From Squalus acanthias (taxonomy: Eukaryota), in assembly GCA_030390025.1 (NCBI GenBank), contig CM059453.1, forward strand, positions 6,572,001 through 6,636,000: a stretch of DNA of 64,000 nucleotides. Reading direction: 5' to 3'. The notes beneath the pieces were generated by a model. That model had not been told where the DNA came from. It made no database searches and was given only the letters and a program-made list of their open reading frames with translations. The translations under genes and the position numbers were made by a program. Positions 6,598 to 64,000 of this stretch are shown one piece after another (positions within the stretch are counted from its first letter, which is position 1; every line of letters begins with the position of its first letter).

Positions 6598-6599
6598 TC

Positions 6600-21900: not shown

Positions 21901-21903
21901 TAA

Positions 21904-21922
21904 TGCCGAACGTGGCAGGAGT
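21904..21922 (+). promoter_or_regulatory. Primer-binding site, probably tRNA-Arg
   Basis: tgccgaacgtggcaggagt, 3 nt after the LTR; ~15/19 match to the recalled complement of the vertebrate tRNA-Arg(TCG) 3' end (tggcgaccgcggcaggact). Confidence 0.55.
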
Positions 21923-21974
21923 TTGGCAAAAATGTTATGAAGCATTTGACACTGGTTTTGAGGAGAGAACTGTA

Positions 21975-24548: not shown

Positions 24549-24563
24549 GAGACGGGGGGCGAA
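24549..24563 (+). promoter_or_regulatory. Polypurine tract
   Basis: gagacggggggcgaa immediately before the TGTA that starts the 3' LTR. Confidence 0.7.
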
Positions 24564-26469: not shown

Positions 26470-27894
26470 GAGGTGATTAGGTGGAGAACAGGAGTGGATT
26501 TAATTACAGAATTGATAATAGCGTAAAATGAAAGTAGCAATAATGAGTCCAAAGGGAATCTTCCCTTTAAATGTTCCCTGGGTAAATTTACTTCCTAGAA
26601 AGTGTTTTGAAAGTGGAAGTCGCTGCCACATGGAGTAGTTTAGGTGCATTTCATAGATGAATTTAAGGGGGAGCTAGATAAGCTCAAGAGGGAAAAAAAG
26701 AATATAAGGTTATGCTAATATCGTGAAAAGAAGAGCGGTGGAAGGAGGCTTGTTTGAGCCATGGACCAGTTGGGCAGTGTAGCCTCTTTCGGTGCCGTGA
26801 ACGCAATGTAAATATACACTGTCACTAACACACATAGAGAATCTTCCCACTATAGTAGCACCATCAAGAACACAGAAATCGTGCGCTTAGTATGAAATGA
26901 AATGATATAAACTACACCCGTTGCCAATGACATTGTTGGGTAGGTCAACATGACAACACCCGGGTCCGGTATGACTCTGCCAGTATTGATCAGTGGGACT
27001 GAGTTCAGGTGGTGGAGCGCACTGCCCACAGAATTTCTTTCATTAGCCGGTGGATTTACCCTTTGAACCGAAATGAAAATGACAAACCAATGCACTGGGG
27101 TGTAATCTTCCAGTGCTGGAACTGAAACATTTAGAGCTGCGTCAAGGAACCAGATTGCAAAAATGTTTCATTCAGGCATTACATTTACAAAATGCGGAGA
27201 AAATACAACTTGCCCATTACGCCGATGGATTCCTATCCCTGTCCTCAGTACCTTTGAAACGAGAAAAATTTGCACACCCCCACACGTGCTTTCTGCAGGA
27301 TGCATTCCTAATTCTACCTCTTATCCCTTTCGAATCAATTGTGCACTTTACGAAAAATGCCTACATGTCGCAAAGTCACCTCAGGAAGTGATACCGTCAC
27401 ACAATTTATTAAGTAAATCATCCAAGTTCGCTGGGAAGAGAACTGCTGGGAGCTGGGATTAGACGAACACTTCTCCCAACAACCTCACAACAACAAAGCA
27501 AAAAAAAAAAAATCATGTATCGCCTTTTACGACCTCAAGACATCCCAAATCGCTTTACAGCCAATGAAATACGTTTGAAGTGTGATCACTTTTGTAGTGT
27601 AGAAGCATAGCAATTCATATTGCACGGAGCAAATCCCACATACCAACAGCGTGATAATGTCCAGATAGTCTGTTTAGTGATTTTTGGTTGTGGCAATTAG
27701 GGACGGGCAATATTAACAGGCTACGCCCACCTCCCAGAAACGAATAAACAATAAATTTAAAAAAATATTGACGGTGAGTATTTGTGAGTGGCTGAAAATA
27801 ATTTGGATACAGCGAACAGCTCACCAGAGATTTCTGTTGAATGTTAGTGCTGCATGTTTTTTTCCAATTAGATAGTTGCATTTATGTGTCCTCG

Positions 27895-31446: not shown

Positions 31447-31489
31447 ATGAGCACTTGCATGTTGTTTTCTCTCATGATATTGACCGAAG
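31447..31489 (+). CDS. Coding exon 1: signal peptide MSTCMLFSLMILTE
   Basis: gccATGA context, hydrophobic core, phase-1 donor G|gtacat; joins exon 2 as E-A-F-C-S. Confidence 0.75.
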
Positions 31490-34400: not shown

Positions 34401-37400
34401 AAATGTAATCTTCTGACATTGTACGCTACACAAGCATTGTTGTCTATCTATATATGCTTTGTCGATTCGTATTCCTTTACTTCACCTGACGAAGGTGCAG
34501 CAGCTCCGAAAGCTTGTGATTTCAAATAAAACTGCAATGGCTATAACCTGGTGTTGTGCGACTTCTCACCAATGCCCACCCCATTCCAACAACGGCATCT
34601 CCGCATCATGGCAAATTGTTGATGCACACAGTGAGTAAAAGCAATCCCACAGCACAGCTCTGTGGGACACCGTACTCAGATCCAACCATTCTGAGCAACT
34701 GCACTTAACGGCGACTGACTGCATCGTCCCTTCTAAACAGTTTATTTTGCAATTTCGACATTATCCTTAATTCCAAATATCTTAATATATTCTCCAATAA
34801 TCTCCCTGTGTTTACCGTCGACAATGGCTGGCTGATTACATTTCAAGTTACATTTTGCTGAAGCGTCTTTTGACGTCGCCAGGAGTCAAATGGCGCTGAA
34901 TTAATGCAGTCTTTGTTCGTGCCTTTCCCTATCCAGCGCTCATTTACCCCGCTTTTAATAAGATCTTAATTAAAAAGTAGATATTTCAGTAATGTGAAAA
35001 TCAGTTCAAGTTATAATTTATTTGTTCTTTCTAATCCATCGTCAACAAATGATAGTTCTGCTGAAGCCTTCATGAGATTCATACGCGAGGAAACTGCCCT
35101 TTGTCTGGTCTGTCCCTTTCTTGAGCATTGTCGTTCTCCATTGACGTTTATTGGCAACAGAATCGAGATCTCTCTGGGTCTGCATTAGTCACCATCATAT
35201 TGGCAGGTACTCGTGCAGAAGGAATCATAAGAGTGGATGAAATATTCGTGACATTTGAGGAGTTAACGTTGATTCTATGTCCAGCCTGCAAAATCTGTTC
35301 ATTGGAGAATATCCGTGATACATAAAATTTAGGAGACATAACGACTAATGTTTAATTAAGTGGGGCCACATGTTACCTGATGAGGCCTCATACTAAATTA
35401 CAACTGCGAGGAGTAATTCAGAATGGAGAACACACTTGCAACATGTAGCAGAGAAAAATAAAAAAAAAATGATTTTCTTGTTTCTTCTTTCTCAGATTTA
35501 GTTGTAAGCCATCAGTCGCCCGTTTTAACATTGAAATGTACCTAACAAGCTGGTTTTCTCCCATTTTTATAGAAAAGCCAGAGATTTTAGGTTATGGGGA
35601 ATTGACCGCTGGACAAACTGCACGAATGACCTGTTCTGTCACACACAACTGCCCGGATGGCAACCTGAAACTGAAGTGGATTAATTACAATGTGTCCCTT
35701 CCTCCCGCAATGGATACTCAAGATGGAGCAGAAATTAGCAATGAAAGTTCAGGTTCTCGGACAGTTTCATCCGTGATCATCTTCACACCATCATCTGCTA
35801 ATGACGGGAATATTCTGGGATGCACAATTCTAATTGATGGTATCACAACTCCATCAGCACAATATTTTACCTTGGAGATTAAATGTAAGTCATAGAGTCA
35901 TAGAGTTATACAGCACATAAACAGGCTCTCCGGCCTATCGTGTCCACGCCGGCCATCAAGCCTTGTCTATTGTAATCCCATTTTCCAGCACTCGGACCGT
36001 AGCCTTGTATGCTATGGCGTTTCAAGTGCACATCTAAATGCTTCTTGAATTTTGTGAGGGTTCCTGCTTCTACGATCCTTTCAGGCAGTGAGTTCCAGAT
36101 TCCAACCACACTTTGGGTGAAATTTTTTTTCCTCAAATCCGCTCTAAACCTACTGCCCCTTACCTTGAGACTATGCCCCCTGGTTATTGACCCCTCTACT
36201 AAGGGGAAAAGATCCTTTCTATCGACCCTATCTATGACAAACATAATTTTGTACACCTCAATCAGGTCACCACGCAGCCTTCTATTCTCTAGGGAAAACA
36301 ACCCCAGCCTGTCCAGTCTCTCATCATAGCTGAAGCGCTCCAGCCCAGGTAACATCCTGGTGAATCTCCTCTGCACTCTCTCCAATGCAATCACATCCTT
36401 CGTCTAGTGTGGCGACAAGAACTGCTCACAGTATTTCAGCTGTGGCCTAACTAACGTTTTGTTTAGCTCCATCATATCCTCCCTGCTGTTATATTCTATG
36501 CCTCGGCTAATGAAGTCAACATTTCCATATGTCTTTTTAACGACCTTATCTACCTGTCCTGTTGCCATCAGGGATATATATACATGCACACCAAGGTCCC
36601 TCTGATCCTCTGTCCTTCCGAGGGTCTTACCACTCATTGTGTATTCCCTTGCCTTAATAGTCCTCTAAAAATGGATGTCTTGCTGCAGCTGTACAGGGCC
36701 TTGGTGAGGCCACATCTTAAGTACTGTGTGCAGTTTTGGTCGCCTTATCTGAGGAAGGATGTTCTTGCCATGGAGGGAGTGCACCGAAGATTCACCAGGC
36801 TGATACCTGGGATGGCAGGAATCTCGTATGAGGAGAGATTGGGTCGATTGGGCTGAAACTCGCTGGAGTTTAGATGAATGAGAGGGGAACTTATATAAAC
36901 TTCTAAAATTCTAACAGGACTAGACAGACTAGATGCAGGAAGGATGTTCCCGATGGCCGGGGAGTCCAGAACCACGGGTCAGAGTCTAAGGATATGGGGT
37001 GAGCCATTTAGGACTGAGATGAGGAGGAATTTCTTCACCCAGAGAGTGGTGAACCTGTGGAATTCTCTACCACAGAAGGCAGTAGAGGCCAATTCATTAA
37101 ATATATTCAAGAAGGAGTTAGATATATTTCTTCAAGCTAAAGGGATCGAGGTATATGGAGAGAAGGCAGGGACAGGATACTGAATTTGGACGATCAGCCA
37201 TAATCTCATTGAATGGCGAAGCAGGCTCGAGGGGCTGAATGTCCTCCTCCTGCTCCTATCTTCTATGTTTCTATGTTTCTAAATGCATCACCCCACACTT
37301 TTCAGGGTTACATTCCTTTTGCCACTGTTGTGCTCATCTAACCATCCCTTCTATACCGTCCTGTCGCCTGAGGCTTCCCTCCCCGCTCCACCAATTTTCG

Positions 37401-40400: not shown

Positions 40401-43400
40401 CACAAAACACAGGAGGACCACTCCACGCTGCCGACCTGCCCTGCCATGTCCTACCCGTAATTTACTACATTTACTTCCTTTAATTTAACGAATATTAATT
40501 ACACTAGGGACCTTACTTCCCTTTAAGCACTACTTAATCTAAACTAGAGACCTTACTTTTTCTTTAACAAATGGACTGTAGAAATACTCACCAGCTCCTA
40601 CTTACCAATCAGCTCCTTCCCAGGTTATGACGTCACTTTAGCGGTTTCGCAGTTGTTGTTGTTTGACTGCACCCGCTCTCGGACTCTTTCCTTGGTGTAA
40701 AGTAAGAACCAATTCCCAACTCACAGCACTCTGCTTAAACCGCACTTTTATTTTTCTCCAGATGCGGTTGCGGGATGTCACAGAGCCGAACTCCCGCTGG
40801 TTCTCTGTCCGCTCTTGTGCAGCTTTTTAGCTCCTGCTATCATGGAAGCTGAGAAAGACAGAAAAAGAAAGGAACACCTCCCTCCCCGAACTCCCTCACT
40901 AACCAAACTCGCAGCTTAACACTCTGTTCCGAGCTGCACTACGTGACAAACTGCACTAAGTGTCCGGTCTAAAGTAAACAGGCTTATCCTGTCGGCCAAC
41001 GGGCACAACATTTGCACTTTTGCCACAAGTAATTTATCAGGAATTAGAACTTCATCAAAGAATGCATCATGAAAAGCTCAGCATCTGTAGCAGGGGAGCT
41101 CACTTCGATAATAAATGGTTCGGAATGGCTCTCATCTAATTCGCATCAGTCATATTACATTAGAAACATTCATAACCATGAATCAATGATGGTGCCTCCA
41201 ACAGATTTTTTAAAGTGATTGTTAATCTTTATTCTAAGAACTTCCAGTCAGGTTCTGAGTTTAGTCAGTTATAAATGGAAGCAACAAAGGCCATGCCGAG
41301 TTAGGATCTGAATCTATGGCACCAGGTCTCACCTTTGGTTGGGCTTAATAAGAACTTAAGGATTAGGAAAAGGAGTAGGCAATACGGCCCTTCGAGCCTG
41401 CTCCGCCACTCCGGCAATCATGGCTGATCATGGAACTCAACTCCAATTTCCCGACCGATCCCCATACCCAATATAATGAATTAATTATGAGCTTAATTAT
41501 GCTTATTCGGCAATCACGTTTCTCGTTAACGCCTGTTTTAGATGGACTGGAAATCACAACCGTCAACTCCTCTTTTGCAGCTGTGGAAGGAAGTTCATTG
41601 TTATTATACTGCAGGGCCTGGGGGAAACCCCTGGTCAGTTTAAGGTGGGTGAAAAATGGTGAAGAGACCAGCAGGTCTTCCACTGGTGAACTAAAGCAGA
41701 TATTCCACAACATTCGTTCTGAGGACGACGGTGAATATTGGTGCATAGCTGAAAATGCCCTGGGCACCGCCAACCGCTCCACACAGATTTCAGTACAATG
41801 TAAGTATGTATGAATTTATCAATTAGAGAGTAGCCTTTCATTTCACGAACTCTGGATTAAATTCCAATTTTCTCTTGCCTGCTTGCTGGAGGGCGACCAT
41901 GTGCATGAGTTTGGGATGGTTTCACCTCTTTGCGCGGAAATAGCGGCAAACTACCTCGATGGCTCCAATAATGGAAACTAACCTGCATCTCGCTCAGTAT
42001 GACAGGAGTGGAATATTGCTCAATTTCTCATAAATGCAGCGGGTCTTACATTTATGAGGTTGCGACACAAGCTCATTTCCTGGGACCATTAATCTACAAC
42101 TAATTGTTCATAAATTATACTCGTCGTCTGAAATAATCAATTTTCCAATCTATAGAACTGACATGTAGCAATTTGAGGAGCACAAATTCGCTCAAAAAAA
42201 GTGAGATAAAATGGTGTTATCAAACTACTTTTACTTGTATTAACATTGAGTTAATAGTGCAATGTTCTCGAGACTTGATTCTTTGAATTGTCGCTTGTTA
42301 TCCGGAGGTTTATTGAAGAATCACGTCAGTCCACCACAAACGAAATGTTTAATCCAGTACACAAAGTGAAGAAATTGAAATGAATTGAACTTTTAAAACA
42401 TTGACGGGTGTGACACGTTTGTGTGTATATTATACATAATTAAAACTCTGAGCTAGCTCCGTCTGAGGGTCCCTCACAACATCTGTCAGGAGATGTACTG
42501 AAAGACTGAACACTCGTTGTATTTAATATGGAATTGTTCATAACGAGCTCACCTGTTATAAGTGAAAATATAATAAGCCATGAACTGTTGCAACATTGGC
42601 TGCTTCATCTTAAAATATAACAACCAGAACCATTATGGTTAGTTCAAGTCATTACGTAATTGTAGTTCGACACTGCAACTGTTTACATGATCATTCCCGA
42701 TTGAAGTTTCCATTATTTTTAGATAAACCCACAATTGCAGCAGGCCCGACATGCACCAACTCTGAGAATTGGACGGATTGTAGCTGCCGGATCAGAGCCA
42801 ATCCCCCGGGAAACATCACGTGGTGCCTCAATGGGAGAATTCTCACTGGGGACAGGTCAGATGTGGAAATCATCTCCTGGGCAGTGAATAGTCACCTCAT
42901 GGAGAGCTCCCTGAGACTGACTCACCCAACCGGAACCGGAAACCTGATCTCATGTGTTGCAGCAAACGAGCACGGTGATTCTGTCAGTAAATACCAGCTC
43001 CACTCTAAGGGTACGTGTTGAATCTGCCTGTAATTTAATACTATAAGGGAGTTGGTCCATCATGGTCAGTCACTACCTGAACGGTGTTAGTGTCAGCAAA
43101 TACCAGCTCCATTAATCAGCTCCATACTGAATCTATATCTAATTAGTGTAAGGACCTCTTTCCATCAGTGGTCAATCAGCAACTGAAAGGTGGCGTCGGC
43201 ATCATCCATTTGAACTTTCAGTCTTCTGAAACTTGTTCGGTTCATATTTTCAAGATAAGATGGAATTATCTGAGCACCAGAAGTAGCCAGTGATCTTGGA
43301 AAACAAATTCTTGTGAAATAAGCTATTTTTTTTCGAAAATCCAATTTGCTCTCAATACATGATAGCAAACTGCAATCGACCAGTTTGTAGATACATGCTC

Positions 43401-46400
43401 ATCTCTATCTTCTCCAAACTCATTTGAGTATGTAACGCGGATATATAATAAACTAAGCGAAATTGAATTATCTCCATAGATTATAAATCTTACCGCTGTA
43501 ATTGGTGACCTTGGCGGGCCTGTATTCAGCTTAGATTATGTCCACTGATTTTCCGAGGGTGGGTTGTCGCGTGAAGTTAATTTGTCAATTGAGATTTTGA
43601 CATCAGCGAATTTTCAATTATTAATTCCAATTTACACCAGGATGCAACACAGGAATAAAAGGCTTTTACGCAAGGATCATGAGGTTGAGACATGTGGAGT
43701 ATCTAATTTACCACTAGCTTTGAATCCGAACATAAAGGAAACGTGCTTCTTTACACTCATAAAAGTGCTTCTAAGATTGTTGTTTAAACCCAACTTCGTA
43801 ATGTTCATCAATGTTTTTTCCCCAACATTTTAGGAATATTCTCCACGACAACCGTCCTCATAATAGGAGGAGGAGCCACAGGGTTTGTTATTCTAATTGC
43901 AGTCGTGCTCACGCTGAAGATACAAAGGTATGTGTTATTATAAATTTGATAGAATTGTGTTTTAAAGATGACCCTTTCGGCCAGTGATTGTTTTCACCTC
44001 CGGTGTATTCTGTATAAAGTTTGCAGCATGCTCAAAAATAGGCGGAGAATCCCTGTCAGTTTGTTTCTGCTGCTACTTTTAAGGGGCCCCCTCACACGAG
44101 TCCCCTTGCCATGTCACGCTCTAAGGACAGTACTACACAAGAATGATACTTAAATTCTAACAATCAAGCTAGTCCAGCAAACAGCTAAACAAGAAGCAAA
44201 AAAGTCACGTGAAATATACTTTTACAGTCGTTGTTAAGTTTGTTTGACTCCAGGAGTAGAACATTATATTTCAAAATTGGGTGTGAATGATGTACTAAAG
44301 CATGAAACATGCAATTATTTATGTTGCCCTTGTTATCTTATTCTTTCCGGTCACTTAAGCTACTTGATCTGACTAGCTCTCACTGAAAGCCGTAGACAGA
44401 CTCCCTTCTTTTAAAATGCAGGCTGATAATTATCTTCAGAATTGTGACCGGCTCCCAGTGAATTAAAATAACAACCAGATCGGTTTACAATCTGCTGCCT
44501 ATCAAATTTATCCTTCAACCAATCGGACAGGATGTTTATATTTGACATCTATGACGTTGCTCGTCGGATAGGTGCCGCCCCTCAACAGCTAATGATTCGA
44601 CAAAAAACGAAACAAAATGAACCACAACACTCTTGTGAGTGGTGCTAGCTTTTACAGCTTCATGTACCATGATATATTTAAAGAAGGAAATTCCATGTTT
44701 AATAATATGAACTAATCAATGATCGCAAAATGATTGATGAGGAGTATTGATTTATTCCTGATTTCTAACTCCAATGTGTTGAAGTGTTCTACCTAATAAT
44801 AGAAAGGACTGTGTTGACACATTGAAACACTTGCATCTGCTATTTACCCATTTTGAAATCATTAATAAACCTCCCACAGACCGTTATTTATCACACCCAA
44901 CTTTCACCGAGAGCAATCAGCACCGTGCCGTTAACGTATATTATCGATAAAGTAAAATGTTCCCTTTTGAAATGTTGGTTGGTGGAAATTGAAAAGAATT
45001 GGTTTTCGGATCTGGTCTGCGCTAATCAGGAGAAGTAAAAGCCACAAGGTGCCAAATAAAAGGTTAGAACACAAGATTAGGACTCATGGGGTTGAGGCTA
45101 ATATAGTAGCATAGGTAGGGGGTTCGTTAACCGACAGAAAACAGACAGTAGGTATAAACGGATCTTTTTCAGGTTGGCAGGTTGCAACTAGTGGGGTGTC
45201 GCAAGGATCACTGTTGTAGCCTCAGCAATTTACAATCTGTATTAATGACCTAGATGAAGGGACCGAGTGTAATGTATTCAAGTTTGTTGATACAAAGCTA
45301 GGTGGGACAGTAAGCTGTGAGGACAACACAAAGAGTCTGCAAAGGGATATAGATAGATTAAGTGAGTGGGCAGTAAGATGGCAGATGGAGTATAATGTAG
45401 GGAAACGTGAGGTTATTCTCTTTGGTAGGAAGAATAGAAAAACAGAATATTTTTTAAATGGTAAGAAACTTTTAAATGTTGGTTGTTCAGAGAGATTTGG
45501 CTGTCCTCGTGCAAGAAAGACAGAAAGCTGGCATGCAGTTACAAAAAGCATTAAGGAAGGCAAACGGCATTGTGTCCTTTATTGCAAGTGGTTTGGAGTA
45601 TAAGAGTAAGGAAGTTTTGCTACAATTGTACAGGTAAGAACACACCTGGAGTACTGTGCACAATTTTGGTCTCCTCTAAGGAAAGATATACTTGCCTTCG
45701 TGACAGTGCAACGAAGTTTCATTAGATTGATTCCTGGGATGAAAGGGCTGTCCGATGGTGAGAGTTTGTGTAGAATGGGCCTATACTATCTGGAGTATAG
45801 AAAGATGAGATGATCGAATTGCAACATACAAGATTCTGAAGGGGATTGACAGGTTAGATGCTGAGAGATTGTTTCCCCTGGCTGGAGTGTCTAGAACTCT
45901 GGGGGATAGTCCCAGGATATGGGGTCGTCGATTTAAGACCGAGTTGAGGAGGAATTTCTTCACGCAGTGGGTTGTGAATCTTTGGAATTCCCTGCCCCAG
46001 AGGGCTGTGAATTTAGAGTCTTTGATTATTTTCAAGGCTGAGATAAATACATTTTTGGACTCTACGAGAGTCAAGGTCTACGGACATGGTTTGGGAAAGT
46101 GAAGTTGAGGTCGATGATCAGCCATTATCTTATTGAATGGAGGAGCAGGCTTGCGGGGCTCGAATGGCCTACTCCTGCCTCTATTTCTTATGTTCTTATG
46201 TTCTTAAGTCTTTCGTGACCTACTGACGTCCTTCATCGCGCAAGCGCCGTGTATTTTCACTAAACATTCCAGTTAATTATCAGAAGTGCCTAATTTGCAT
46301 GTTTTATTGTTCAGAAAGAAACACGGAGAAGCTGCACGTGTCTCCGAAACACACGATGATTTGGTGATTTACAGTACGGTGCAGAAGGTACTAAACACTG

Positions 46401-49380
46401 AAGTAAGTGAAGCCAAGCTGGGCTGCAAATTGTAGTATGGTTTTAGTGCTTTCAACCAGCAAGTAACTCATAACTGGCATTACCCAACAGATAAACTGGA
46501 GTGTCAGAAACGTGTTGCCCATTAAGGGAGGATTAACCGCCTCAGGTCGCTAAGAGTGCAACATAGCTACAGACTCTAAGTCTAGTGACCGACTAAATCC
46601 AATTAGGGAGTATTTCTCACCTTGGCGTTCCTTCAAAAACCAAATTCTTAATATAGGAATGCGTTTCCAATGTCATCTTACCCCCTACGAATTAGGTGTC
46701 ATCTGTTAAATGCCCAACAAGCTCACGAAGTGTCAGCGACCCCAGAGGGGATAATCGTTGCCCTTCCTCAGGTTATGTGTAACTCCAATTTGCATCTTGC
46801 TGCCGATGTGGGCCCCATGTTCTCCACCTTTCCGCAAGAAGGCTGTGGCTTCAAGCTTCGCTTCAGCATCTGAACCGATAATCTGGACTGAAACTTCATT
46901 TCAACACTGAAAGGTGTGCAGCATTGCCAGAAGACCCGTCCTTTTGTATTAGATGATAAACGAGGCCCCGGTTGTTTCTTGCTATGGAGGGAATCGATCA
47001 CTTGGTCCTATTGTGGGGACGAATGAGAGTTTTCCCAGGGCCCTTACTAACATTTCTCCTTCAATGAACACCAGCTAACACAGATTAAGTCGCCATTCAT
47101 CCATTTAACTGGTTGCTGCATATTTTCTACAACAGCGGCTGGAATTCAAAATATATTAATTGCATAGCAGTGCTTCGGTCTTAATAATCACAGAATCATA
47201 CAGCCCAGAAGTAGCCATTCAGCCCGCGGTGCCAATGCTGGCTCTTTTAAAGAGCTATCCAATTGGTTACACTATTCTGCTCTTTGACCTTAGCCTTGAT
47301 TTGATTTTTTTTCCATGTTCACGCGTATATCAAATTCCCTTTTGAAAGTCACTGTTGAATATGCTGCCACCGACCTACATGCAGCTCATTCCAGATCACA
47401 AATCGCCTTGCTAAAAAAAAACCTTCTCACCTCCTATTTGGATCTTGTCCCAAATATCTTCAATCTGTGTCCTCTGGTTAGCGATGCTCCTGCCAGTGGA
47501 ATCAGTTTCTCTTTTATTGTGTATTAAAATTCAGCAGTATTTTTATCACCAATATCTAATCTCCCTTTAACATTCTCTACCCTAAGGAGAACAACCCCAG
47601 TTTCCCTGGACTCTTTCTTTAAGTGCAGTCCCTCATTCCTCCTACAATTCTAACAAATTTGTTCTGTACCTTCACTAATGCATTGACGTCCTTTCGACGG
47701 TGTTATGCACAGAACTGAACACAATTCGCCAGCCGAGGCATAACCACTGATGTACAAATGTTCAGCGTATTTTTCTTGTCTTCATAATCTGTAACTCAAT
47801 TTATAAAAACCCGGATCAAGTATGCTATTTCGAAGCATTAGAATCATTTTACAGTACAGGAGGCGAATATTCGGTCCGTTGTACCTGTGCTGGCTCTTTG
47901 AAAGAGGTTTCCAAATTAGTCCCACATCCCAGCCTTATCGATTCGTCCGGATATACAATTGCACGTTCTTTATTTCTTGCATCAAAACTTAACAACGCTC
48001 ATCTCATGAATCAGCACCATTAGAAATCTTAACAGGTGCAGACAGCGCACTGCCATTGCATTCAGGTCCATATTTTTTTTAATTCGTTTATGGGATGTGG
48101 GCCACGCTGGCAAGGCCAGCATTTATTGACCATCCCTAAATGATCTTGAGAATGTGGTGGTGAGCCCCCTTCTTGAAACGCTGCACACCGTGTGGTGAAG
48201 TTAGTCCCACAGTGCTGTTAGGGAGGGAGTTCCAGGATTTTGACCCATCGACGATGAAGGATCAGCGATATACTTCTAAGTGAAATGGGGAACTTGGAGT
48301 TGGTGGTGTTCCCATGCGCCTGCCGCCCTTGTCCTTCTAGGTGGAAGAATTCGCGTGTTTGGGAGGTGCAGCTGAAGAAGCCTTTGTGAATTTCTGCAGT
48401 GCATCTTGTAGATGGTACACACTGCAGCCACGGTGCGCCGCTGGTGGAGGGAGTGAATGTTTAAGGTGGTGCATGTGGTGATGATCAAGCGGGCTGCTTT
48501 GTCCTGGATGGTGTCGAGCTTCTTGAGTATTGTTGGAGCTGCACTCATCCAGGCAAGTGGAGAATATTCCATCACACTCCTTACTTGTACCTTATAGATG
48601 GCGCAAAGGCTTTGGGGAGTCGGGAGGTGAGACAATCGTCGCAAAATACCTAGCCTCTGACCTGCACTTCTTACCACATATTTGCAATAGCTCTGTTGTG
48701 GAGTATTGTAAAACAACACTCGGCACAAGGGTTTAGATCGACAGACAAGTTGTCTTTATTACACCGGTGGAGAGACAGTCTGCTCTGTCCTAGCCAGACG
48801 TTTCCAAATTGTTACAGCAAACACTACATTTTTATACATTACAATACACATGACCATCTCATGCAAAATATATTCCAGCCACCTGATTGGATCTTGGCCC
48901 GCATGCACCTTCACGGATTGGTTACGAATCTTAATATAAGCATGTATAAGCTACCTCTTCGAACAATCACTCAAATTGCTGAATGCTAATTAAAAGATAC
49001 CTTGGAATGCGACCTAGGTAATAAAGTTCTTACGGGTAGTTGAAATGCTGGACATCCTGTCTCCATTTAATTGTTTTATCTCTCTCCAAATGTCAGCTGT
49101 CGTTGACCACATCGTTATAGATGTGGCACTTCATGTTAGCCCTTACCTTTTTACAGTATTCAGGAAAACTGCCAGCAATGTAATTTTAACTCTTTCCCCA
49201 CAGCAGCTCCACATCTAACACAAATGACTTCCGTTACAGAGGGGCCATCAGTGTACAGAGGCTGGTCGTGGCGCCGCTCAATCGACTAAACCAGATCAGC
49301 GTGACGAGATTGTGTACGCGACCGTCAATTTCTCAAACTTCCGCAAACATGATCAATATATTGAAAATGAGGAGAGCTGA
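31447..49380 (+). CDS. Siglec/MAG/CD22-like inhibitory Ig-superfamily receptor; spliced CDS join(31447..31489,32113..32493,35573..35884,41542..41799,42723..43010,43834..43927,46315..46402,49240..49380), 534 aa
   Basis: All introns are GT-AG with compatible phases (1,1,1,1,1,2,0); 1605 nt open from ATG to TGA. Order: signal peptide, Siglec-type V-set, C2 with HxCP, I/C2, MAG-D5-like Cys-rich Ig, TM, tail with VIYSTV and IVYATV ITIMs. Orthology to a named Siglec cannot be assigned by eye. Confidence 0.88.
32113..32493 (+). CDS. Coding exon 2: Siglec-type V-set Ig domain
   Basis: Acceptor tttctcag|, donor G|gtgagt. VVMPKVVSAVLGSCAEIPCKF...FSGRAEFKGNLEKRQCSLLIKDIRKSDEGAYQF shows the Siglec B-E intrasheet Cys pattern, an interdomain Cys and no F-strand Cys. 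Confidence 0.93.
32553..33075 (-). mobile_element. CR1 3' fragment in intron 2
   Basis: (catagagt)n reverse tail; TQRVVRSWNLLP. Confidence 0.85.
35573..35884 (+). CDS. Coding exon 3: C2-set Ig domain (Siglec domain-2 type)
   Basis: tttttatag| acceptor, T|gtaagt donor; KPEI...MTCSVTHNCP...LKW...VSSVIIFTPSSANDGNILGC. Confidence 0.92.
35891..40956 (-). mobile_element. Full-length, inactivated CR1 LINE (5'UTR, ORF1 with Zn finger and SGNH esterase, ORF2 EN-RT, tail)
   Basis: ORF1 fragments (CRKCLQLQ; VHIGTND; DGLHLN), EN (IYFNARSL, ITETWL, VGDFN), RT (YMDFSKDFDKVPH, GVPQGSVLGP, KFADDTK), C-terminus at 35906; TSD taagt at 35886-90 and 40957-61. Confidence 0.93.
36674..37280 (+). mobile_element. 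CR1 3' fragment nested in the full-length CR1
   Basis: Opposite orientation, (tttctatg)n tail, TSD aaatg at 36669-73 and 37281-85. Confidence 0.9.
41348..41470 (-). mobile_element. Short CR1 3'-terminal fragment
   Basis: aggagtaggcaatacggcccttcgagcctgctccgcca motif. Confidence 0.75.
41542..41799 (+). CDS. Coding exon 4: I/C2-set Ig domain
   Basis: ttttag| acceptor, T|gtaagt donor; EGSSLLLYCRAWGKP...LRW...EDDGEYWCIAENALG. Confidence 0.92.
42723..43010 (+). CDS. Coding exon 5: membrane-proximal Cys-rich Ig domain (MAG domain-5-like)
   Basis: tttttag| acceptor, G|gtacgt donor; PTCT...DCSCRIRANPPGNITW...SSLRL...ISCVAANEHG. Confidence 0.9.
43834..43927 (+). CDS. Coding exon 6: transmembrane segment
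   Basis: ttttag| acceptor, AG|gtatgt donor (phase 2); GIFSTTTVLIIGGGATGFVILIAVVLTLKIQR. Not in the ORF track. Confidence 0.88.
45040..46205 (+). mobile_element. CR1 RT-to-3' fragment in intron 6
   Basis: Degenerate GVPQGS-like and WQMEYN motifs; (ttcttatg)n tail. Confidence 0.88.
46315..46402 (+). CDS. Coding exon 7: cytoplasmic exon with ITIM VIYSTV
   Basis: ttgttcag| acceptor in phase 2; (R)KKHGEAARVSETHDDLVIYSTVQKVLNTE|gtaagt. Confidence 0.82.
47189..47940 (-). mobile_element. Old CR1 3' fragments
   Basis: Reverse tails (acagaatcatacag; agaatcattttacag) and ctaaggagaacaaccccag. Confidence 0.7.
48073..48685 (-). mobile_element. HER1-type LINE 3' portion
   Basis: ORF IYKVQVRSVMEYSPLAWMSAAPT..LDTIQDKAARLI plus the HE1/HER1 shared tail. 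Confidence 0.8.
48694..49205 (-). mobile_element. Solo LTR (512 bp)
   Basis: Termini TGTTGTGG...CCACAGCA (7/8 inverted match), 4-bp TSD gctc on both sides, minus-strand AATAAA at ~48755. Confidence 0.75.
49240..49380 (+). CDS. Coding exon 8: terminal cytoplasmic exon with ITIM IVYATV
   Basis: Branch-point-like ctaac at ~49215, then ttccgttacag|; RGHQCTEAG...DEIVYATVNFS...ENEES*. The same acceptor context is conserved in the paralog at ~62461. AATAAA at 49482. Confidence 0.82.
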   Translation, partial: RGHQCTEAGRGAAQSTKPDQRDEIVYATVNFSNFRKHDQYIENEES

Positions 49381-49784
49381 GAATATGCAGCAATGAAACA
49401 TAAGTGAAAGTAAACAGTTGTTAAACTGTTAGCGCGGATGGTCTTGAAACTGACAATAGTTTAAAACACCTGATGACATAAAATAAATCAAACATTGTAT
49501 TGAAATAAGCATTATCAGAATGGCGATCGTTGAGACAATCGGTTGCATGTTTTGATTTAAGTTCTCAAAGTGAAGTTCATTGGAATACAGTTGAGAGTGT
49601 GATTTTTTCATCAATGTAACTTTTCAATTTTTTTAATCTATTCTTTGAAAATAACAATTTTACAAACCATAGCTAGCATCGTCTCTCTCTGTTAATCTAC
49701 TGTAATCGATTGGCCCGCAGTATGAACCCTCACTAACGGGGATAAGGTTGCCAAAAAAGCTTGCAATGAAACACCAGAGACAAT

Positions 49785-50496
49785 GGCCCTGAATTTCCGT
49801 TCGGAGGCTTCCTGCGGGCGGAGGCCTCCGATCGGAAAAAAATCTACGAACTTACCTGCAGGTTCAGTAGATACCGAGGCTTGAGATCCTGGTCCTCTCC
49901 TCTTCGAAATGCGCAGAAGCCCACGTATCCCAGGGGCGCATTCGGTTCCCAAGCGCCCCTGCGATCTCGTGGGCCAGGCGAACCAATGGAAGAAGGGAAT
50001 CCCCCTTCATACCTTTTTGACAGTTGCGTCCGCAATGAACTGTCAAACGTATAAATGGGGATGACTACAAAAATGCGCCAACTCACTGAAATAAATAAAT
50101 AAAAATCATTACATTTATAACATTAATTAAAATGCCGTTTTATTAAATATTTTAAACAGAAATTTAATTTTTTGAAAAATGAAATTAAATGTTTTAAAGC
50201 AGCTAAATAAACCTTACATTATTGCAAATTTTTTTTAATATTTAAATGATTGTAAAAAATCATTGTAATGTTATTTTAAACTCTTAGCTAGTAAAATCAG
50301 GCCTGACGCCTGCTTTTACAAGGCGTAAGAATTCTATCGCCTTTCAGCGGGCGGAGGTTGAGCAAAAAGCGCAACTCTCCAGCCGCGGAGGCCCTTCTCC
50401 AGTGGATGCGGAGGATCCGGTATTAGCGCATGCGCTTCGTATGCCTGAACCCGGCACTTGCGCGGCCACTGCAGGTGCGTCGCCAAATTCGGCCCC
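49785..50496. mobile_element. PIF/Harbinger-like MITE
   Basis: TIR-like ends ggccctgaattt ... aaattcggcccc, AT-rich core, right end followed by taa. Confidence 0.65.
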
Positions 50497-50719
50497 TAAA
50501 CTTTACTTACTGGTGCGCCTAAAATCAGGTGCTTATTTAAAGAGATCCTTAAAGCAAAGTGCCTGTTTACATCATCGTATTGTCATATCTAAGGGTTAAA
50601 TAAAACATTTAAAACAACAAAATTATGTACATACACTGTATTAAATGAGTGTATGCAGACATCGGCCCGATTACAGCTTTAATAATGTATAAAATTATCA
50701 AAAAAATATTTTTTTATTA

Positions 50720-51488
50720 GCCCTGAATTTGCGGTCGGAGGAATACTTCCGGAGTACACCTCTCACCTGCGAAATATTTCCGAACGAAGCCCTTGGCTCC
50801 ACAGCTACGGAGAGTTCGGATGCTGGGATTCCCAGCGTCCGCCTGCTAAAAGCTAAAGGATCCCAGGGATGCAGACGGTCCGGAAACGTCACTGGGATCA
50901 CGTGGGCCGAGACCTCCAATCAGAATGAGGAATTCCATTGCAGTCATTTACGAAGGGAATCCGCAAATGATGTGCAAGTGAAGCCATAAATAATTAGACA
51001 ATTCAGACAAATCTAATAAATATAAATGTTCTGTTTTTCAAATTTATTTAAAAGTCCCTCAATCACACCAAATGCAAGAAAAAAATAATTTTCTGATAAA
51101 TATTTTTAAACATTTTAAGCTGGGCCAAATTTGCATAAACTAATTTTAATTGTTTGTGCAGCATTTTTTATTGTTAAATTTTTAAATCATGATTTATATT
51201 AACCGCTACGCTAGTGAAAGCAGACACTACCCATTCTTAAACAGCCATCAGTGTTTCGTGGGCAATTGTTGTGCAGTAGTTTGGCAAATAGCCCAACTGT
51301 GCGACAGCGAATATGATTTCTCTGTCAGTTCTTTCGAATTCTCAAGGCGTACCTGGACAGATCGCAAGTTCCTGATTTGCGCGCATGCGCAACACATGAG
51401 TAGACCCAAAATTTGCCGGGCCCAAACTGAAGGATTAGGATGGCATAGGCTGAGCGAATGCCGTCAAAGACACCATAAATTCTGGCCC
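50720..51488. mobile_element. PIF/Harbinger-like MITE
   Basis: tta|gccctgaatttgcgg ... cataaattctggccc. Confidence 0.65.
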
Positions 51489-51489
51489 A

Positions 51490-52040
51490 CTGAGTTTGGT
51501 GGAATGAAGGTAATTGTGATTAAAATTCCAATTCTGTTAACTGTATAAGTTTTACATTTCGGCATTCCCTTGCATATCATTAGCGGATTCCCTTCGTAAA
51601 TGACTGCAAAGGAAATCTCCTTTGTCATTGGAGGACCAAGCACATGTGATCCCAGGTAGCTTCCGCACTGCCTGTGCCCTTGGATCTGTGGGCCATTACA
51701 CTGCCCTCCGCCATGTGGCCCGAGACCGCAACTTTTCGCAGCCTGCCCGCCAACAGGTGATTTCGTCATTGTTTGGCGGGTCGGAAGCGCACACTGGAGG
51801 TACACCTCCAGCCTCAATTTCCAGCAAACCATTTATTTCGACGTATTTGGTTTCAGGCTTCATTTTGCATCTTGACAGAAAAAAATCACAGGATTTGGAA
51901 ATCTGTTTTCCGCTCACTCACGACAACAGGTGAGTTTCTGATTTTTTTTGAAGATTTAATTGGCTCCAATCAGCCTCCGCCCACATAGCCCATGCACCGA
52001 GGTGAAATTGCTGGAGGGTGTAATTACAGTTTGATCAGTT
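51490..52040. mobile_element. Inverted partial copy of the same MITE family
   Basis: 51570-51660 is the reverse complement of 50890-50980. Confidence 0.5.
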
Positions 52041-52861
52041 CACACAGACAGGTTCCAATAGAAATTAGGGCACAGGAACTTATCATGGGAAATGTTGACT
52101 GTAATTGCATTAGACGCATTTTTAAAAAAAAAATAGTATTCGATTTTCCCAGTCACTCGACGCGTGGAAGGTCAGAGAGTGCGGTCTCTATTCTGTGTCG
52201 CTGAAGACTACTCATTGCTATTTTGCTCCCTCTATTTCCTCTTTCGCTTCTGTCACTCTCTTGTTCACTCGTTCTCTGATCTCCTGTGCTTCTCACCAAT
52301 TAACTTTTCCCACTTTTGTCTCGCCCCCGACTGATTCTCTATATTTCTGTAACTTTCTTATTTCCTTTCAGTTTAATTCGTATTGCATGCTGCGATGCGG
52401 AAAGGAGTCACCAATGCTTGTATGATGGATTTGTCCTGTCAAATTCAGGGAAAATGCGGCAACGCCAGCTCCCTTCCCACCTGTTCCCCAATCATTTATG
52501 CTTCCCCAATTTCCTCAATCCAGTCCCATCGCCTACCCCGTCAAAGTCCCACTACTCCCTCACGTTTCTATAATTGCCACACGAATAGAATTACCCATTA
52601 CTCTGTCAAATTCCACTTGTTCCTTTGGTAACTGTCCCTTCATTAGAATAGTTTGTCATAAGGGTAAATGTCGGAGCTCCACCTCTTCAGCTTCTTTTCC
52701 GAGTCTCCTTTCCCTCACGTTCCTTTCCTCCTTTCCTCTTTCTTCCCCTCAAAGATGCATTGTTTGTATTCAAAATAAAACTTTTTTCTTATTCAAGGAA
52801 ATTACCTTGCAATATGGATATTAACCAGACAGACAGCAAATGATAGATACATAGGTAGAGG

Positions 52862-53060
52862 NNNNNNNNNNNNNNNNNNNNNNNNNNNNNNNNNNNNNNN
52901 NNNNNNNNNNNNNNNNNNNNNNNNNNNNNNNNNNNNNNNNNNNNNNNNNNNNNNNNNNNNNNNNNNNNNNNNNNNNNNNNNNNNNNNNNNNNNNNNNNNN
53001 NNNNNNNNNNNNNNNNNNNNNNNNNNNNNNNNNNNNNNNNNNNNNNNNNNNNNNNNNNNN
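52862..53060. other. Assembly gap (~200 N)
   Basis: Run of n characters. Confidence 1.
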
Positions 53061-54350: not shown

Positions 54351-54954
54351 AATATAGAATATTGTGGCTAAAGGGAACTGGGAGTGCAAAGTGAGATAAC
54401 GAAGTTCTACATCGCCTAACTTCAACAATTGACAACTAACTCAGTGAAATGCGATTGGATCTCTTTTTGTTGTTAGATATAAGAGTTTGTAATGGAGAGT
54501 TTGAGCAGTGCCATGGATAGGGAATGGTACAAATATCAAAACGGGTCAACTTTAATTCTTCCTTAAACGGACATTAATTCATGGGAGGCTGCAAAGGCAT
54601 TAAACTACTTAAACGTTAAACCTGTGCAGGAGAGCTGTTGAACTGCGACTGTTGAAAGCGTAACTGAGACAAGAGATGCACCGTGTGATGTGTGCAATGA
54701 CACCAGCAATGGTTCCTGAAATTTATCTCTAATTTGTATTCCCATTGAAATCGAAAAGGTTTGAAGACATACCGCATACCAGCCAAGCGTATTCGCTAAT
54801 GTATCCTATCTAGTAGTTTGCATTCATTAAAAACAGGAAAAATTACAGCTAAATGTAGCTGAAATCTAACGAAGAGGTTCGAATAGCTTATGTGTACATT
54901 AACACATACCCAACAATGACTTCGGGATTGGATTTTGATGTATTGTTTTGGGTG

Positions 54955-56887: not shown

Positions 56888-57935
56888 AATTATGTCCTAA
56901 TTGCCTCGCTGGATTATATCAGAGCTAACAAATGCGTTCTGAGGGTGAAGACTGCTCCAGGTTTAAGCTGGTCACATGCTTCAATCGCAGGTCTGTACAA
57001 GGTTGGCAGCTGCCACACTATTAATGGCATCGACGCTAAATGGAATGAAACAGCCAGTGATCCAATTCCTGATCACTTTCGAGTGTACCCTTCCCACCTG
57101 GTCACTGGGCCCGCATCTTGGCTGCGTAAGCCCAGGGTCAGGCACAACTGTGAGCACGGAGCCCACTGGCAGCCAGAGCGCTTGAGTTAATAATGTTACC
57201 ATGTGTTCTTTGTTTATCTGTACCACGTTTTCTTATTGGATCGGTACCACGTGTTCTTGGTGTATCTGTACCACGTTTACATTGTCTACCTGTAACCCGT
57301 TTTATTTCTGTATCTCTACCAAGTGTCCTCTTTTATATGCAGCACGTGTTGTTTCTGTTGCAAAGAGACGAGCGAATATGCAGCTATTAAATTTACATGA
57401 AAAGGACCAGAACATGGAGAGGACGTTTCTCTGAATCTCAAAATTTCAGTTTCATTGTCTAAACGAAAAAATTATAACAACGAAGAGATACGACAATTTT
57501 TTACAATCAAGATATTGGAAACGCTCGTTGTTCTTGCTTGCAGTTTTTGCCCCAATATTCTCCACTTCCAACTTGAACGCTTGCTGGAGTTCGATTTCTC
57601 TAATCTCTCGCTTAAACTGTTTTTTTGCAGATCCCTCCCTTCACTACGAGGTTTGTCCCGAGGCCCAATACCCCGGAGTCTGCTCCTGTCCTCACAGGAT
57701 ATCGAAAAGGCTACTTGCCGCACGGTTCACTGAACAGCGATAAATACTATGGAAGAAATCCCCCTCTCTGACCCGGGGCTCCGAGTCCATTTGGATTCCC
57801 TCACCCAAGATTGATCAATGAGAGACGTGATTACTTTCGGAACTGCATTGCTCAACTGCATCGGTTGAAGCCATTGAGAGCAATTGTGCGATGCAACGCA
57901 CTGCCACCCCCCGGATAACCTAAAGCTGATTATAT

Positions 57936-61619: not shown

Positions 61620-62356
61620 ACTTGAGCACAAAAATCTAGGCTGACAGTCCAGTGCAGTACTGAGGGAGCGCTGCACTGTCGGAGGGGCAGTACTGAGGGA
61701 CTGCTACACTGTCGGAGGGGCAGTACTGAGGGAGCGCCGCACTGTCGGAGGGGCAGCACTGAGGGAGTGCCGCTATGTCGGAGGGGAAGTACTGAGGAAG
61801 CGCAGCACTATTGGAGGGACACTAATGGGGGAGCGCTGCACTGTGGGAGGGGAAATACTGAGGGAGCGTGGCATTTTCGGAGCACTGTACTGATGGAGCG
61901 CTACACTATTGGAAGGGCATTACTGAGGGGGTGCTGCATTGTCGCAGGTCCAATACTGAGGGAGCGCCGCGCTGTCCGAGGAGCATTACTGAGGGAGCGC
62001 AGCACTGTCGGAGGGGCAGTACTGAGGGAGTGCTGCACTGTCGGAGCTGCCGTCTTTCGGATGAGACGTTAAAGCAAGGCCCTGTCTTCCCTGCAGGTGA
62101 ACGTAAAAGATGCCATTGCCACTATTTCGAAGAAGAGCAGAGAATTTTCCCCGGTGTTATTGAACAATATTTATCACTCAATCAACATAACAAAAACAGA
62201 TGATCGGGTCATTATCAAATTGCTGTTTTTGGGAACTTGCTGTGCACAAATTGGCGGCCACGTTTCCTACATTACGCCAGCGACCACACTTCAAATGTAC
62301 TTCATTGGCTGTAAATCACATTGGGACGTCCTAAAAGGCGCTATAGAAATGCAAGT
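61620..62356 (+). mobile_element. SacSINE1/DeuSINE-like SINE with internal minisatellite expansion
   Basis: SINE core and tail at 62050-62356; 5' part amplified into tandem 33-mers. Confidence 0.8.
61655..62046. repeat. 33-bp minisatellite, ~12 copies (cagtactgagggagcgctgcactgtcggagggg)
   Basis: Unit starts at 61655, 61688, 61721 ... 62017. Confidence 0.92.
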
Positions 62357-62377
62357 GGGATCAGATGATTTGTTTTA

Positions 62378-62460
62378 GCTGCATACAGGTCCTCTTCACT
62401 TTGAGCTGACTGGTTTGATGGAGCCCCTCTCACACCAGTGTTTCTATATTTGTCTTGGCT
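62378..62460 (-). pseudogene. Remnant of terminal cytoplasmic exon, paralog of exon 8
   Basis: Upstream ctccacatctaacgcaataccttctgttacag matches ctccacatctaacacaaatgacttccgttacag at ~49208-49239. The translation aligns without gaps, with Tyr at codon 26 in both (EEDLYAA vs DEIVYAT). Confidence 0.75.
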
Positions 62461-62777
62461 CTGTAACAGAAGGTATTGCGTTAGATGTGGAGGTACTGAA
62501 CCGTGTGAGAGTGCGCTTACTGTACCAGAATAACTCGTTTTATTCCATCACTGCCGCCATTCTAATTATCCTGTTACGCTACTTCTGCCTCCAAAAGGAA
62601 ACCTTGGGCTTCTGCTAGCCCCGAGGACCGGCACGCAAAGAGTTATTGCCCCCTCCTTAACACTTAGCCGACTGATTTAGATAGCGTCGCGAACGTTCTG
62701 AGGAGCGGTACCAAACAACATTTGAGACCGACCAATAATGTCCCTTTATAAATGTATTAGGTTCATTTCCCACTTAC

Positions 62778-63035
62778 ATTGTACAGAAATTTGTGTGGAG
62801 CTGTTTGCGGTACCCAGGTTATTTTCAGCCACGCATCAATACTCCCCCTCATCTTCAGAACTAATGCTGTGAAATATCGGCTTTCGTTCACCGGTGGAAG
62901 ACCTGCTGATCTCTTTATCATCTCGGAGCAATGTTAAACTGACAGGCGGGATCCCCAGGGCCGTTCAGTATAATAATAACGATCTTCCTTCCACTGTTAC
63001 AACAGAGCAATTATCGCTTGGTTTCCACAGTGCAT
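62778..63035 (-). pseudogene. Ig exon paralogous to exon 4, with nonsense mutations
   Basis: Same length as exon 4 (258 nt); ttcag| and |gtaagt intact; VEGRSLLLY*TALG...SEDEGEY*CVAENNLGTANSSTQISVQ. TGA at 62965-67 replaces the B-strand Cys and TGA at 62836-38 replaces Trp. Confidence 0.9.
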
Positions 63036-63844
63036 CTGAAACACGCAAGAACATTGGTGTTACAGGAAAATGTCGGAGCAGAAGTTTAGAAACCAATCCG
63101 GTTGAAAACCAACGAAGAATATTAAAGCAGATCTGGTGTTTATATTGTCAACTGTAAATTGAAAAGCCAGCTTGAGATTGTTGTTGTTCCATCGACAAGC
63201 TTATTTAGATCTGAAGCATGCTTTAACTCAACCTTTCCTCCTCTTCTCTTCAAGGAGTTGTAGTGACTTCCTGGATGTGGTTCTGCTCCACCGATACGTC
63301 AATCAAGCGGCCATTCCTCCCAGAGCAAGAACAGTGGGCTCTCACATCCCTTAAGCAGAGCTGTTGAGGCCAATTGTAGTAACCCGACCATCGCCCCAGC
63401 CAACTCGACACAGACCATCTGTGTCAGGTACTCTCTGGCTGCAACTATATCAGGAATTAGGAGCCTTTGGAATAACATTTGACGTAAAAGACAACGATGG
63501 AGCGACCAATATTACTCTATGGGTCTGTGTCAATGTTAAACAATAGAACTTACAATAAATCTCGGACAGTCAATTTGATTAATTGATTATAGAAACATAC
63601 GCCATTCTGCACTTCGAGTCTGTTCCACGAATCAATTAGATCATGGTTAATCCATATCGTAACTCCTTCTACCCGCCTTTGCTTTATTGTAACCCTTAAT
63701 AGCCTTAACAAATAAAAAATCTATCCATCACAGTTTTGACATTTTCAATTTTCCAGGCCAGCTATCACTCCCCTGAGAATAAGGACAAGTTTGGATCCAA
63801 TCTACCAACAGGATAGCAGAATGAAGGTTACAGCAGTTACTTAC

Positions 63845-64000
63845 AGTCCAGATGTAAGTGTTTCTTGAACGGTAACCACGACACCATCAACAACAAGCTT
63901 ACATCCCATCCTTTTCCCTTTACGGTCCAGTGATGGAGTGAACGTGAATGTTGATGAAACCGTCCAGGAACCATTGACATTTTTCCACTGTGTCTTGAAG
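63845..64000 (-). pseudogene. 3' part of C2-set exon, paralog of exon 3
   Basis: NVNGSWTVSSTFTFTPSLDRKGKRMGCKLVVDG aligns with SSGSRTVSSVIIFTPSSANDGNILGCTILIDG. The gtaagt donor at 63844 is reached in phase 2 rather than 1, implying a frameshift. Confidence 0.8.

What the first reader, a model, noticed from the sequence alone, without database searches (positions are those of the whole stretch)
49372..49407. In-frame TGA cuts off a terminal ITSM-like motif: recent nonsense allele or readthrough switch
Seen: the last exon reads ...ENEES-TGA(49378-80)-EYAAMKHK-TGA(49405-07). Established: Siglec tails usually end with a distal (T/S)EYxx(I/V)K motif a few residues before the stop. Inference: the first TGA is a one-base change (e.g. 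TCA to TGA) removing the third tyrosine motif while keeping both ITIMs; being in the last exon it would escape NMD and change signalling. Readthrough is possible, but the context (TGA-G) is not the leaky TGA-CTAG type.
Basis: partly seen in the sequence, partly recalled or inferred. Interest (0 to 1): 0.7.

Follow-up and report, generated by a model that had tools for sequence, protein, structure and literature searches.

The report
Early stop trims shark immune receptor
One copy of a fast-evolving, multi-copy shark immune-receptor gene has a stop codon that clips off the last nine amino acids and one of three signalling motifs, an ordinary kind of change that relatives in other sharks also show, with no sign of a read-through switch.

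Summary
An otherwise intact 8-exon Siglec/MAG-like receptor gene (31447-49407, +) has TGA at codon 535 (49378-80), nine codons before the family's normal stop. The TGA occupies the Y-2 position of the distal motif. The motif is ITIM-like, not a true ITSM. Programmed readthrough or selenocysteine is unsupported: the stop is not conserved, the context is UGA-GAAU, and there is no SECIS or 3' structure. The invariant Y+3 Ile (10 of 10) is Met here, a weak hint of decay. Loss of this motif recurs: 4 of 15 database models with the homologous exon end before it, at three other positions. Pseudogene fragments flank the gene. Public contigs could not settle error, allele or fixed change. Best reading: an ordinary nonsense truncation in a birth-and-death receptor family, leaving a two-ITIM inhibitory receptor. 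The V-set domain lacks the sialic-acid-binding Arg, so Siglec membership fails. Interest is low.

The parts
31447..31489 (+). Exon 1, start codon and signal peptide (phase 1 donor)
   Evidence: aligns with the N-terminus of P0001
32113..32493 (+). Exon 2, V-set Ig domain of Siglec/MAG type; F strand has Ile where sialoadhesin has the sialic-acid-binding Arg
   Evidence: Pfam V-set 3e-10 and Ig_CD22 9.8e-9; best PDB hits sialoadhesin 1e-11 and MAG 4e-8, alignment
35573..35884 (+). Exon 3, C2-type Ig domain
41542..41799 (+). Exon 4, I-set Ig domain
   Evidence: Pfam I-set 6e-13
42723..43010 (+). Exon 5, membrane-proximal Ig domain
   Evidence: 65-75% identical to the 9 shark proteins found
43834..43927 (+). 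Exon 6, transmembrane segment without a charged residue (inhibitory type)
   Evidence: sequence
46315..46402 (+). Exon 7, cytoplasmic, ITIM 1 (VIYSTV)
49240..49407 (+). Exon 8 coding part: ITIM 2 (IVYATV), premature stop, untranslated relic of the distal motif, ancestral stop
49378..49380 (+). Premature TGA (codon 535) at the Y-2 position of the distal motif; aligned with Cys in the closest relatives; 3' context GAAU
49381..49404 (+). Eight codons EYAAMKHK after the stop; Y+3 is Met where 10 of 10 relatives have Ile
49405..49407 (+). Ancestral stop codon, at the same position as the C-terminus of relatives
49482..49487 (+). First AATAAA, candidate poly(A) signal about 100 nt after the premature stop
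   Evidence: its use is not shown
57343..57400 (+). Orphan paralogous tail fragment reading ETSEYAAIKFT*, behind AG dinucleotides and a 24-nt tandem repeat; relic, or untested alternative last exon
62377..63996 (-). Paralogous pseudogene pieces: part of a C2 exon, an I-set exon with two in-frame stops, and the start of a last exon broken off by a repeat
27770..27883 (+). Further Ig-exon relic with a stop at the conserved Cys

Best explanation
A genuine nonsense change, most likely Cys TGC/TGT to TGA, in the last exon of one copy of an expanded elasmobranch Siglec/MAG-like inhibitory receptor family. Ribosomes stop after Ser534. The mRNA has no exon junction downstream and a short 3' UTR, so it should escape nonsense-mediated decay (inferred). 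The protein keeps four Ig domains, the transmembrane segment and two canonical ITIMs, so it should still recruit SHP-1/SHP-2 (inferred from mammalian Siglecs). It lacks the third, ITIM-like tyrosine. The loss is tolerated or nearly neutral, as in relatives that lost the same motif independently. Shown: gene structure, position of the stop, residue in relatives, recurrence in database models. Inferred: expression, escape from decay, signalling.
For: The gene is open and GT-AG throughout except for this stop. Y-2 is Cys in the four intact models closest to the window: P0001, P0002 and P0007 in its 100/100 clade and P0166; TGC and TGT are one-step neighbours of TGA. 4 of 15 database models with the homologous last exon end before the distal Tyr: P0010 Heterodontus (three accessions with the same sequence), P0012 Heptranchias, P0021 Chiloscyllium and P0039 Stegostoma. 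They end at three positions, all different from the window's. Met replaces an Ile found in 10 of 10 relatives after the stop. Three pseudogene relics lie in the same window, and many 5-15% divergent contigs lay on this exon in three DNA-type runs. Passages of PMC9652399 report that Siglec-6 single-tyrosine mutants still inhibit; passages of PMC7165337 call the membrane-proximal ITIM the important one.
Against: No displayed contig or read confirms the TGA: rows for 49378-80 are not among the 40 shown, with 106 hidden, and every contig laid on 49376 in X4, X5 and X6 has C where the window has G. The truncated relatives are RefSeq predictions whose stops I could not check in DNA. The distal Tyr is kept in 11 of 15 models across sharks, which indicates selection on it in most copies. 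Expression of this copy is not shown. The Ile>Met argument rests on a single substitution.
Confidence: 0.72

Rival explanations
1. Assembly or consensus error, or a chimeric join between near-identical paralogs; the real gene has Cys and a full tail.
For: The exon belongs to a multi-copy family, where polishing errors are likelier. No listed near-identical piece spans the stop, and X4 record 9 and X5 record 20 stop matching exactly at 49381, which points to another base at 49380 in those contigs.
Against: Those contigs differ from the window at 11 of 114 and 10 of 83 letters, so they are paralogs and not this copy. The window copy has further differences nearby (49376, Met at Y+3, six 3' UTR sites), which a single error would not give. 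Depth arithmetic leaves one X4 contig over 49370-49380, and no difference row is shown for it at 49378-80, although the table is cut.
Confidence: 0.12
2. The copy is an early pseudogene or silent, and the stop is the first lesion of decay rather than a trimmed working receptor.
For: Pseudogene relics of the same family lie on both sides. Ile>Met follows the stop. Polymorphic pseudogenisation is common in human SIGLEC clusters (passages of PMC7379906).
Against: 534 codons, all 14 splice sites and both ITIMs are intact, and the end branch of the window is short (0.16, median 0.27).
Confidence: 0.08
3. Alternative splicing restores a distal motif: exon 6 or exon 7 joins the orphan tail at 57343 or 57368, giving a short isoform that ends in SEYAAIKFT.
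For: The fragment is on the same strand, has an intact motif and stop, and follows AG dinucleotides whose phases fit the donors of exon 6 (57343) and exon 7 (57368) (sequence; phases).
Against: It lies 8 kb past a poly(A) signal and beyond an assembly gap. The part upstream of the motif is low-complexity sequence next to a tandem repeat. Exon 8 has no convincing internal donor among its 8 GT sites. The fragment resembles the other clade (P0162) and may be the displaced end of the minus-strand pseudogene.
Confidence: 0.04
4. Programmed readthrough, or selenocysteine insertion at UGA (UGA aligned with Cys), switches the distal motif on and off.
For: UGA is the leakiest stop (passage of PMC4132726). 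The frame stays open to the ancestral stop. UGA aligns with Cys in the closest relatives.
Against: Validated vertebrate cases have a conserved UGA-CUAG (PMC4132726 passages); here the context is UGA-GAAU and none of the 15 models with this exon ends at this position. No SECIS among 8 weak Rfam matches in 49200-52800 and 0 hits in a pattern scan. The 100 nt after the stop fold no better than shuffles (z -0.1). The extension has lost its invariant Ile.
Confidence: 0.03

Closest known systems
Elasmobranch 'Siglec-like / MAG-like / Schwann cell myelin protein-like' RefSeq models (P0002 Pristiophorus japonicus, P0007 and P0166 Heptranchias perlo, P0001 and P0010 Heterodontus francisci)
   Same: Same domain order, 55-60% identity over aligned residues for P0001-P0003, same tail layout ITIM, ITIM, distal [E/Q]YxxI; P0166 has the same four Ig domains. 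P0010, P0012, P0021 and P0039 also lack the distal motif.
   Different: The window copy has a stop at Y-2, a position at which no model examined ends.
Mammalian CD33-related Siglecs (Siglec-6, -7, -9)
   Same: V-set plus C2 Ig domains, ITIM and a C-terminal EYxxI-type motif (TEYSEI in Siglec-9, passage of PMC7165337); clustered genes with frequent pseudogenisation and loss of the essential Arg (PMC7379906 passages).
   Different: The shark protein has two ITIMs ahead of the distal motif, Cys or Ser instead of Thr at Y-2, and no essential Arg. Orthology to CD33-related Siglecs was not tested; its best structural-database hits are sialoadhesin and MAG.
Vertebrate programmed stop-codon readthrough (OPRL1, OPRK1, MAPK10, AQP4; UGA-CUAG)
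   Same: UGA followed by a short in-frame extension.
   Different: No CUAG, the stop is not conserved, no 3' structure; here the extension is the ancestral coding sequence.

Membership tests
[quoted passage not shown] | N-terminal V-set domain related to sialoadhesin, MAG and CD22, followed by C2/I-set domains | tested here: met
[quoted passage not shown] | Essential Arg on the F strand of the V-set domain | tested here: not met
   The sialoadhesin Arg aligns with Ile; Arg in 4 of 14 aligned rows, none among the window's closest relatives. The role of this Arg is stated in PMC7379906 passages; the number Arg97 is recalled and agrees with the alignment.
[quoted passage not shown] | Binds sialylated glycans | not testable with these tools
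   needs a glycan array or cell binding
ITIM-bearing inhibitory receptor | Cytoplasmic [I/V/L/S]-x-Y-x-x-[L/V] motifs ahead of the stop, uncharged transmembrane segment | tested here: met
   VIYSTV and IVYATV; consensus from a passage of PMC7226832
ITSM motif | Thr at Y-2 and Val/Ile at Y+3 (consensus recalled, from no call) | tested here: not met
   Y-2 is the stop here and Thr in 1 of 10 relatives; Y+3 is Met here
Programmed readthrough gene | Stop codon conserved across orthologs with a conserved extension | tested here: not met
   0 of 15 models with the homologous exon end at this position; protein models only, no DNA of relatives seen
Programmed readthrough gene | Stimulatory context (CUAG, CARYYA) or 3' structure | tested here: not met
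   UGA-GAAUAU; fold z -0.1
Programmed readthrough gene | Measured readthrough product | not testable with these tools
   needs ribosome profiling, proteomics or a reporter
Selenoprotein | In-frame UGA aligned with Cys in homologs | tested here: met
Selenoprotein | SECIS element in the 3' UTR | tested here: not met
   none in Rfam scan of 49200-52800 or in a simple pattern scan of 49408-52800

The most novel reading that the evidence does not exclude
Sharks carry an expanded cluster of Siglec-like inhibitory receptors, one branch of which has lost the sialic-acid-binding arginine. In this cluster the distal tyrosine motif is removed again and again by independent stops (at least four positions: this window, Heterodontus, Heptranchias, and a shared one in two carpet sharks). 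This would be selected tuning that yields paired three-motif and two-motif receptors with different phosphatase or adaptor recruitment, rather than neutral decay. An orphan downstream tail might let this locus make both forms.
Probability: 0.12. Interest if true: 0.5.

Novelty: new member of a known kind. Interest (0 to 1): 0.2.

Why it matters
As a single event it matters little: a nine-residue truncation in one copy of a fast-turnover immune receptor family. It is useful as an annotation point (the protein ends at Ser534, and the RefSeq-style name 'Siglec' overstates sialic-acid binding). It is also a natural variant for testing what the distal motif adds to two ITIMs. The family around it, an elasmobranch expansion of largely arginine-less Siglec-like receptors, is the more interesting lead; four literature searches of the held library and one broader one listed no paper devoted to it, but most subscription papers are not held.

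Tried and rejected
No whole genome is held for this window, so the other haplotype and the paralogs could not be read directly. The run search listed 22 runs, none holding half of the words and no RNA holder on record; this says nothing on expression. Laying 4 of those 22 runs (X4, X5, X16, X6; contigs only) did not display the codon at 49378-80. A tail-only protein search with P0002 residues 372-461 returned only P0002 itself among 26 candidates. An alternative acceptor at 49204 or 49207 gives a stop after 3-4 codons and is not the one supported by homology. A candidate exon at about 44573-44635 does not fit the phases of exons 6 and 7 and matched no relative; left out. TCA as the source codon was rejected in favour of TGY. 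SECIS and 3' structure searches were negative. The tree's test of label clustering is uninformative (6 changes, 179 of 500 shuffles as low), and its 'no distal' group mixes models that lack the exon altogether; independence of the losses rests on their different stop positions. Two look-ups of earlier findings returned nothing. No structure or complex was predicted, since neither would bear on a stop codon. Notebook entry 2 miscounts the Arg column (1 of 14); and entry 3 correct it to 4 of 14.
Full report
Observation. The + strand reads ENEES*EYAAMKHK* with TGA at 49378-80 and 49405-07. I built the gene from open frames, splice signals and tblastn with three shark relatives. It has eight exons from 31447 to 49407, all seven introns are GT-AG, and the only stops are codons 535 and 544. 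Of 6337 stops in the six frames of the window, only this one is followed by EYxx[ILVM]K. No whole genome is held.

What the gene is. Exon 2 is a V-set domain (Pfam V-set and Ig_CD22) whose best solved relatives are sialoadhesin and MAG. Three more Ig domains, an uncharged transmembrane segment and a tail with VIYSTV and IVYATV follow; both match the ITIM signature quoted in a passage of PMC7226832. The nearest database proteins come from sharks and are named Siglec-like, MAG-like or Schwann cell myelin protein-like, at 55-60% identity over aligned residues for P0001-P0003. The arginine that binds sialic acid in sialoadhesin aligns with Ile here. It is present in 4 of 14 aligned rows and absent from the window's closest relatives. 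The gene therefore looks and should signal like an inhibitory Siglec, but it fails a defining test of membership.

What the stop replaced. The tail aligns without gaps to P0002, and the second TGA is where the relatives end. The first TGA is at Y-2 of the distal motif. Among 10 relatives with an intact motif this position is Cys 4, Ser 3, Asn 2, Thr 1; the Tyr is invariant and Y+3 is Ile in 10 of 10. The window falls in a 100/100 clade with P0001, P0002, P0007, P0010, P0021 and P0039, as sister to P0002 at 91/93. The intact members of that clade have Cys, as does P0166 (not in the tree). TGC and TGT are one step from TGA, so TGY>TGA is the simplest history, not TCA>TGA. By the recalled consensus (Thr at Y-2) the motif is ITIM-like and not an ITSM. 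After the stop the window has Met at Y+3, one change at an invariant site; this is a weak sign that the post-stop codons are no longer constrained.

How unusual it is. In one search, 25 of 161 proteins passed a filter on the last Ig domain (at least 38% identity). I dropped 6 isoform rows. Of the remaining 19, six lack the homologous last exon, nine have the distal motif and four keep ITIM 2 but end before the distal Tyr. These four are P0010 (Heterodontus, three accessions with one sequence), P0012 (Heptranchias, ending just before the Tyr), and P0021 and P0039 (Chiloscyllium and Stegostoma, sister rows ending right after ITIM 2). One search added two intact tails (P0162, P0166), two models without the exon (P0164, P0165) and a fused model that I did not count (P0163). 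The tally is 4 of 15. Left out for failing the filter: the ray cluster P0064/P0161 (intact) and P0017 and P0027 (ITIM 2 kept, different ends). The stops lie at three positions other than the window's, so the losses are independent, but they are gene predictions that I could not check in DNA. The window also holds three relics of the family: 27770-27883, 57343-57400 and 62377-63996. In human SIGLEC clusters polymorphic pseudogenes and loss of the essential Arg are common (passages of PMC7379906).

Reads. The run search found 22 runs, none with half of the words and no RNA holder on record. I laid four, all contigs. The exon attracts many contigs: summed depth 140-650 in X4 and X5, against 12-20 for near-identical single pieces. 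Depth is not a copy number, but the pieces differ from the window by 1-15%, as paralogs would. A piece with 1 difference in 179 letters (X4, 49098-49276) shows that the same or a very close species holds this copy. No listed near-identical piece spans the stop. The evidence at the codon points both ways. All contigs laid on 49376 in X4, X5 and X6 have C where the window has G, and X4 record 9 and X5 record 20 stop matching at 49381, which suggests another base at 49380 in those paralogs. Against that, depth arithmetic leaves a single X4 contig of depth 90.9 over 49370-49380, and no row is shown for it at 49378-80; if the table were complete there, a multi-copy contig would carry TGA, but 106 rows are hidden. 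Error, allele and fixed change remain undecided. One guessed-RNA contig (X16, 22 differences in 149) is a paralog and says nothing on this copy.

Readthrough and selenocysteine. Passages of PMC4132726 state that the four confirmed mammalian cases have UGA-CUAG conserved through vertebrates and lose readthrough when the motif is deleted. Here the context is UGA-GAAU and no relative ends at this position. The next 100 bases fold like shuffles (z -0.1), and neither Rfam (8 weak matches, none a SECIS) nor a pattern scan (0 hits) finds a SECIS. The first AATAAA is at 49482. Basal leakage may give traces of a longer product, but nothing points to a switch.

Mechanism. Most likely the copy makes a 534-residue precursor with two ITIMs. 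Escape from nonsense-mediated decay follows from the recalled rule that it needs a downstream exon junction or a long 3' UTR. The effect on signalling is probably small: in passages of PMC9652399, Siglec-6 with either tyrosine mutated still inhibited and only the double mutant failed, and a review names the membrane-proximal ITIM as the important one (passages of PMC7165337). These are mammalian data carried over by inference. The motif's retention in 11 of 15 models shows that it usually matters, so a modest change in phosphatase recruitment or trafficking is possible.

Literature seen. Passages only: PMC7165337, PMC9652399, PMC7379906, PMC4132726, PMC7226832, and one passage of PMC8455134 (a single mention of Siglecs). 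All other papers: search listings and abstract starts. No supplements were read; gene-family tables in shark genome papers could list this family. Searches listed no paper on this shark family or on this stop.

Verdict. A real feature of the assembly and probably of the animal; an ordinary C-terminal nonsense change in a birth-and-death immune receptor cluster. Interest 0.2.

Noticed in passing
window 32113-32493 (+): The V-set domain lacks the Siglec essential Arg, as do its closest shark relatives; other family members (P0011, P0015, P0018, P0026) keep it. The family may hold lectin and non-lectin branches.
   Followed up: partly
window 57343-57400 (+): Orphan tail fragment ETSEYAAIKFT* of the other clade's type, behind a 24-nt tandem repeat and AG sites; read from 57343 it starts with a Cys-rich stretch. 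Relic of an inverted pseudogene end, or an alternative last exon.
   Followed up: partly
window 62377-63996 (-): Paralogous pseudogene: I-set exon with two stops lies only about 300 bases from the start of a last exon, so the last Ig, transmembrane and first tail exons seem deleted; the last exon breaks off into a repeat.
   Followed up: partly
window 27770-27883 (+): Short relic of an I-set exon of the same family upstream of the gene.
   Followed up: partly
window 44573-44635 (+): AG...GT-bounded 63-base stretch between exons 6 and 7, open in one frame but out of phase with the gene and without a match in relatives.
   Followed up: partly
window 52862-53060: Assembly gap of 199 N between the gene and the downstream relics.
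   Followed up: no
window 21100-26300: Several long open frames (for example 22100-22708 and 22959-23717, +) and a duplicated stretch near 21400 and 25960 that look like a degraded LTR-type element; by eye only, not searched.
   Followed up: no
window 35900-40500, 45080-46200, 55250-56570 and much of 1-17000: Many LINE-like retrotransposon fragments with reverse-transcriptase-like frames fill the introns and flanks; by eye.
   Followed up: no
window 54900-55250 and 56550-56880; 61650-62050: Low-complexity tandem arrays of roughly 55-60 and about 33 bases, by eye.
   Followed up: no
P0007, P0012, P0162, P0163, P0164, P0166: Six Heptranchias perlo models share a longest-contig length of 15,743,313, which suggests one gene cluster; two are fused models of neighbouring genes.
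   Followed up: no
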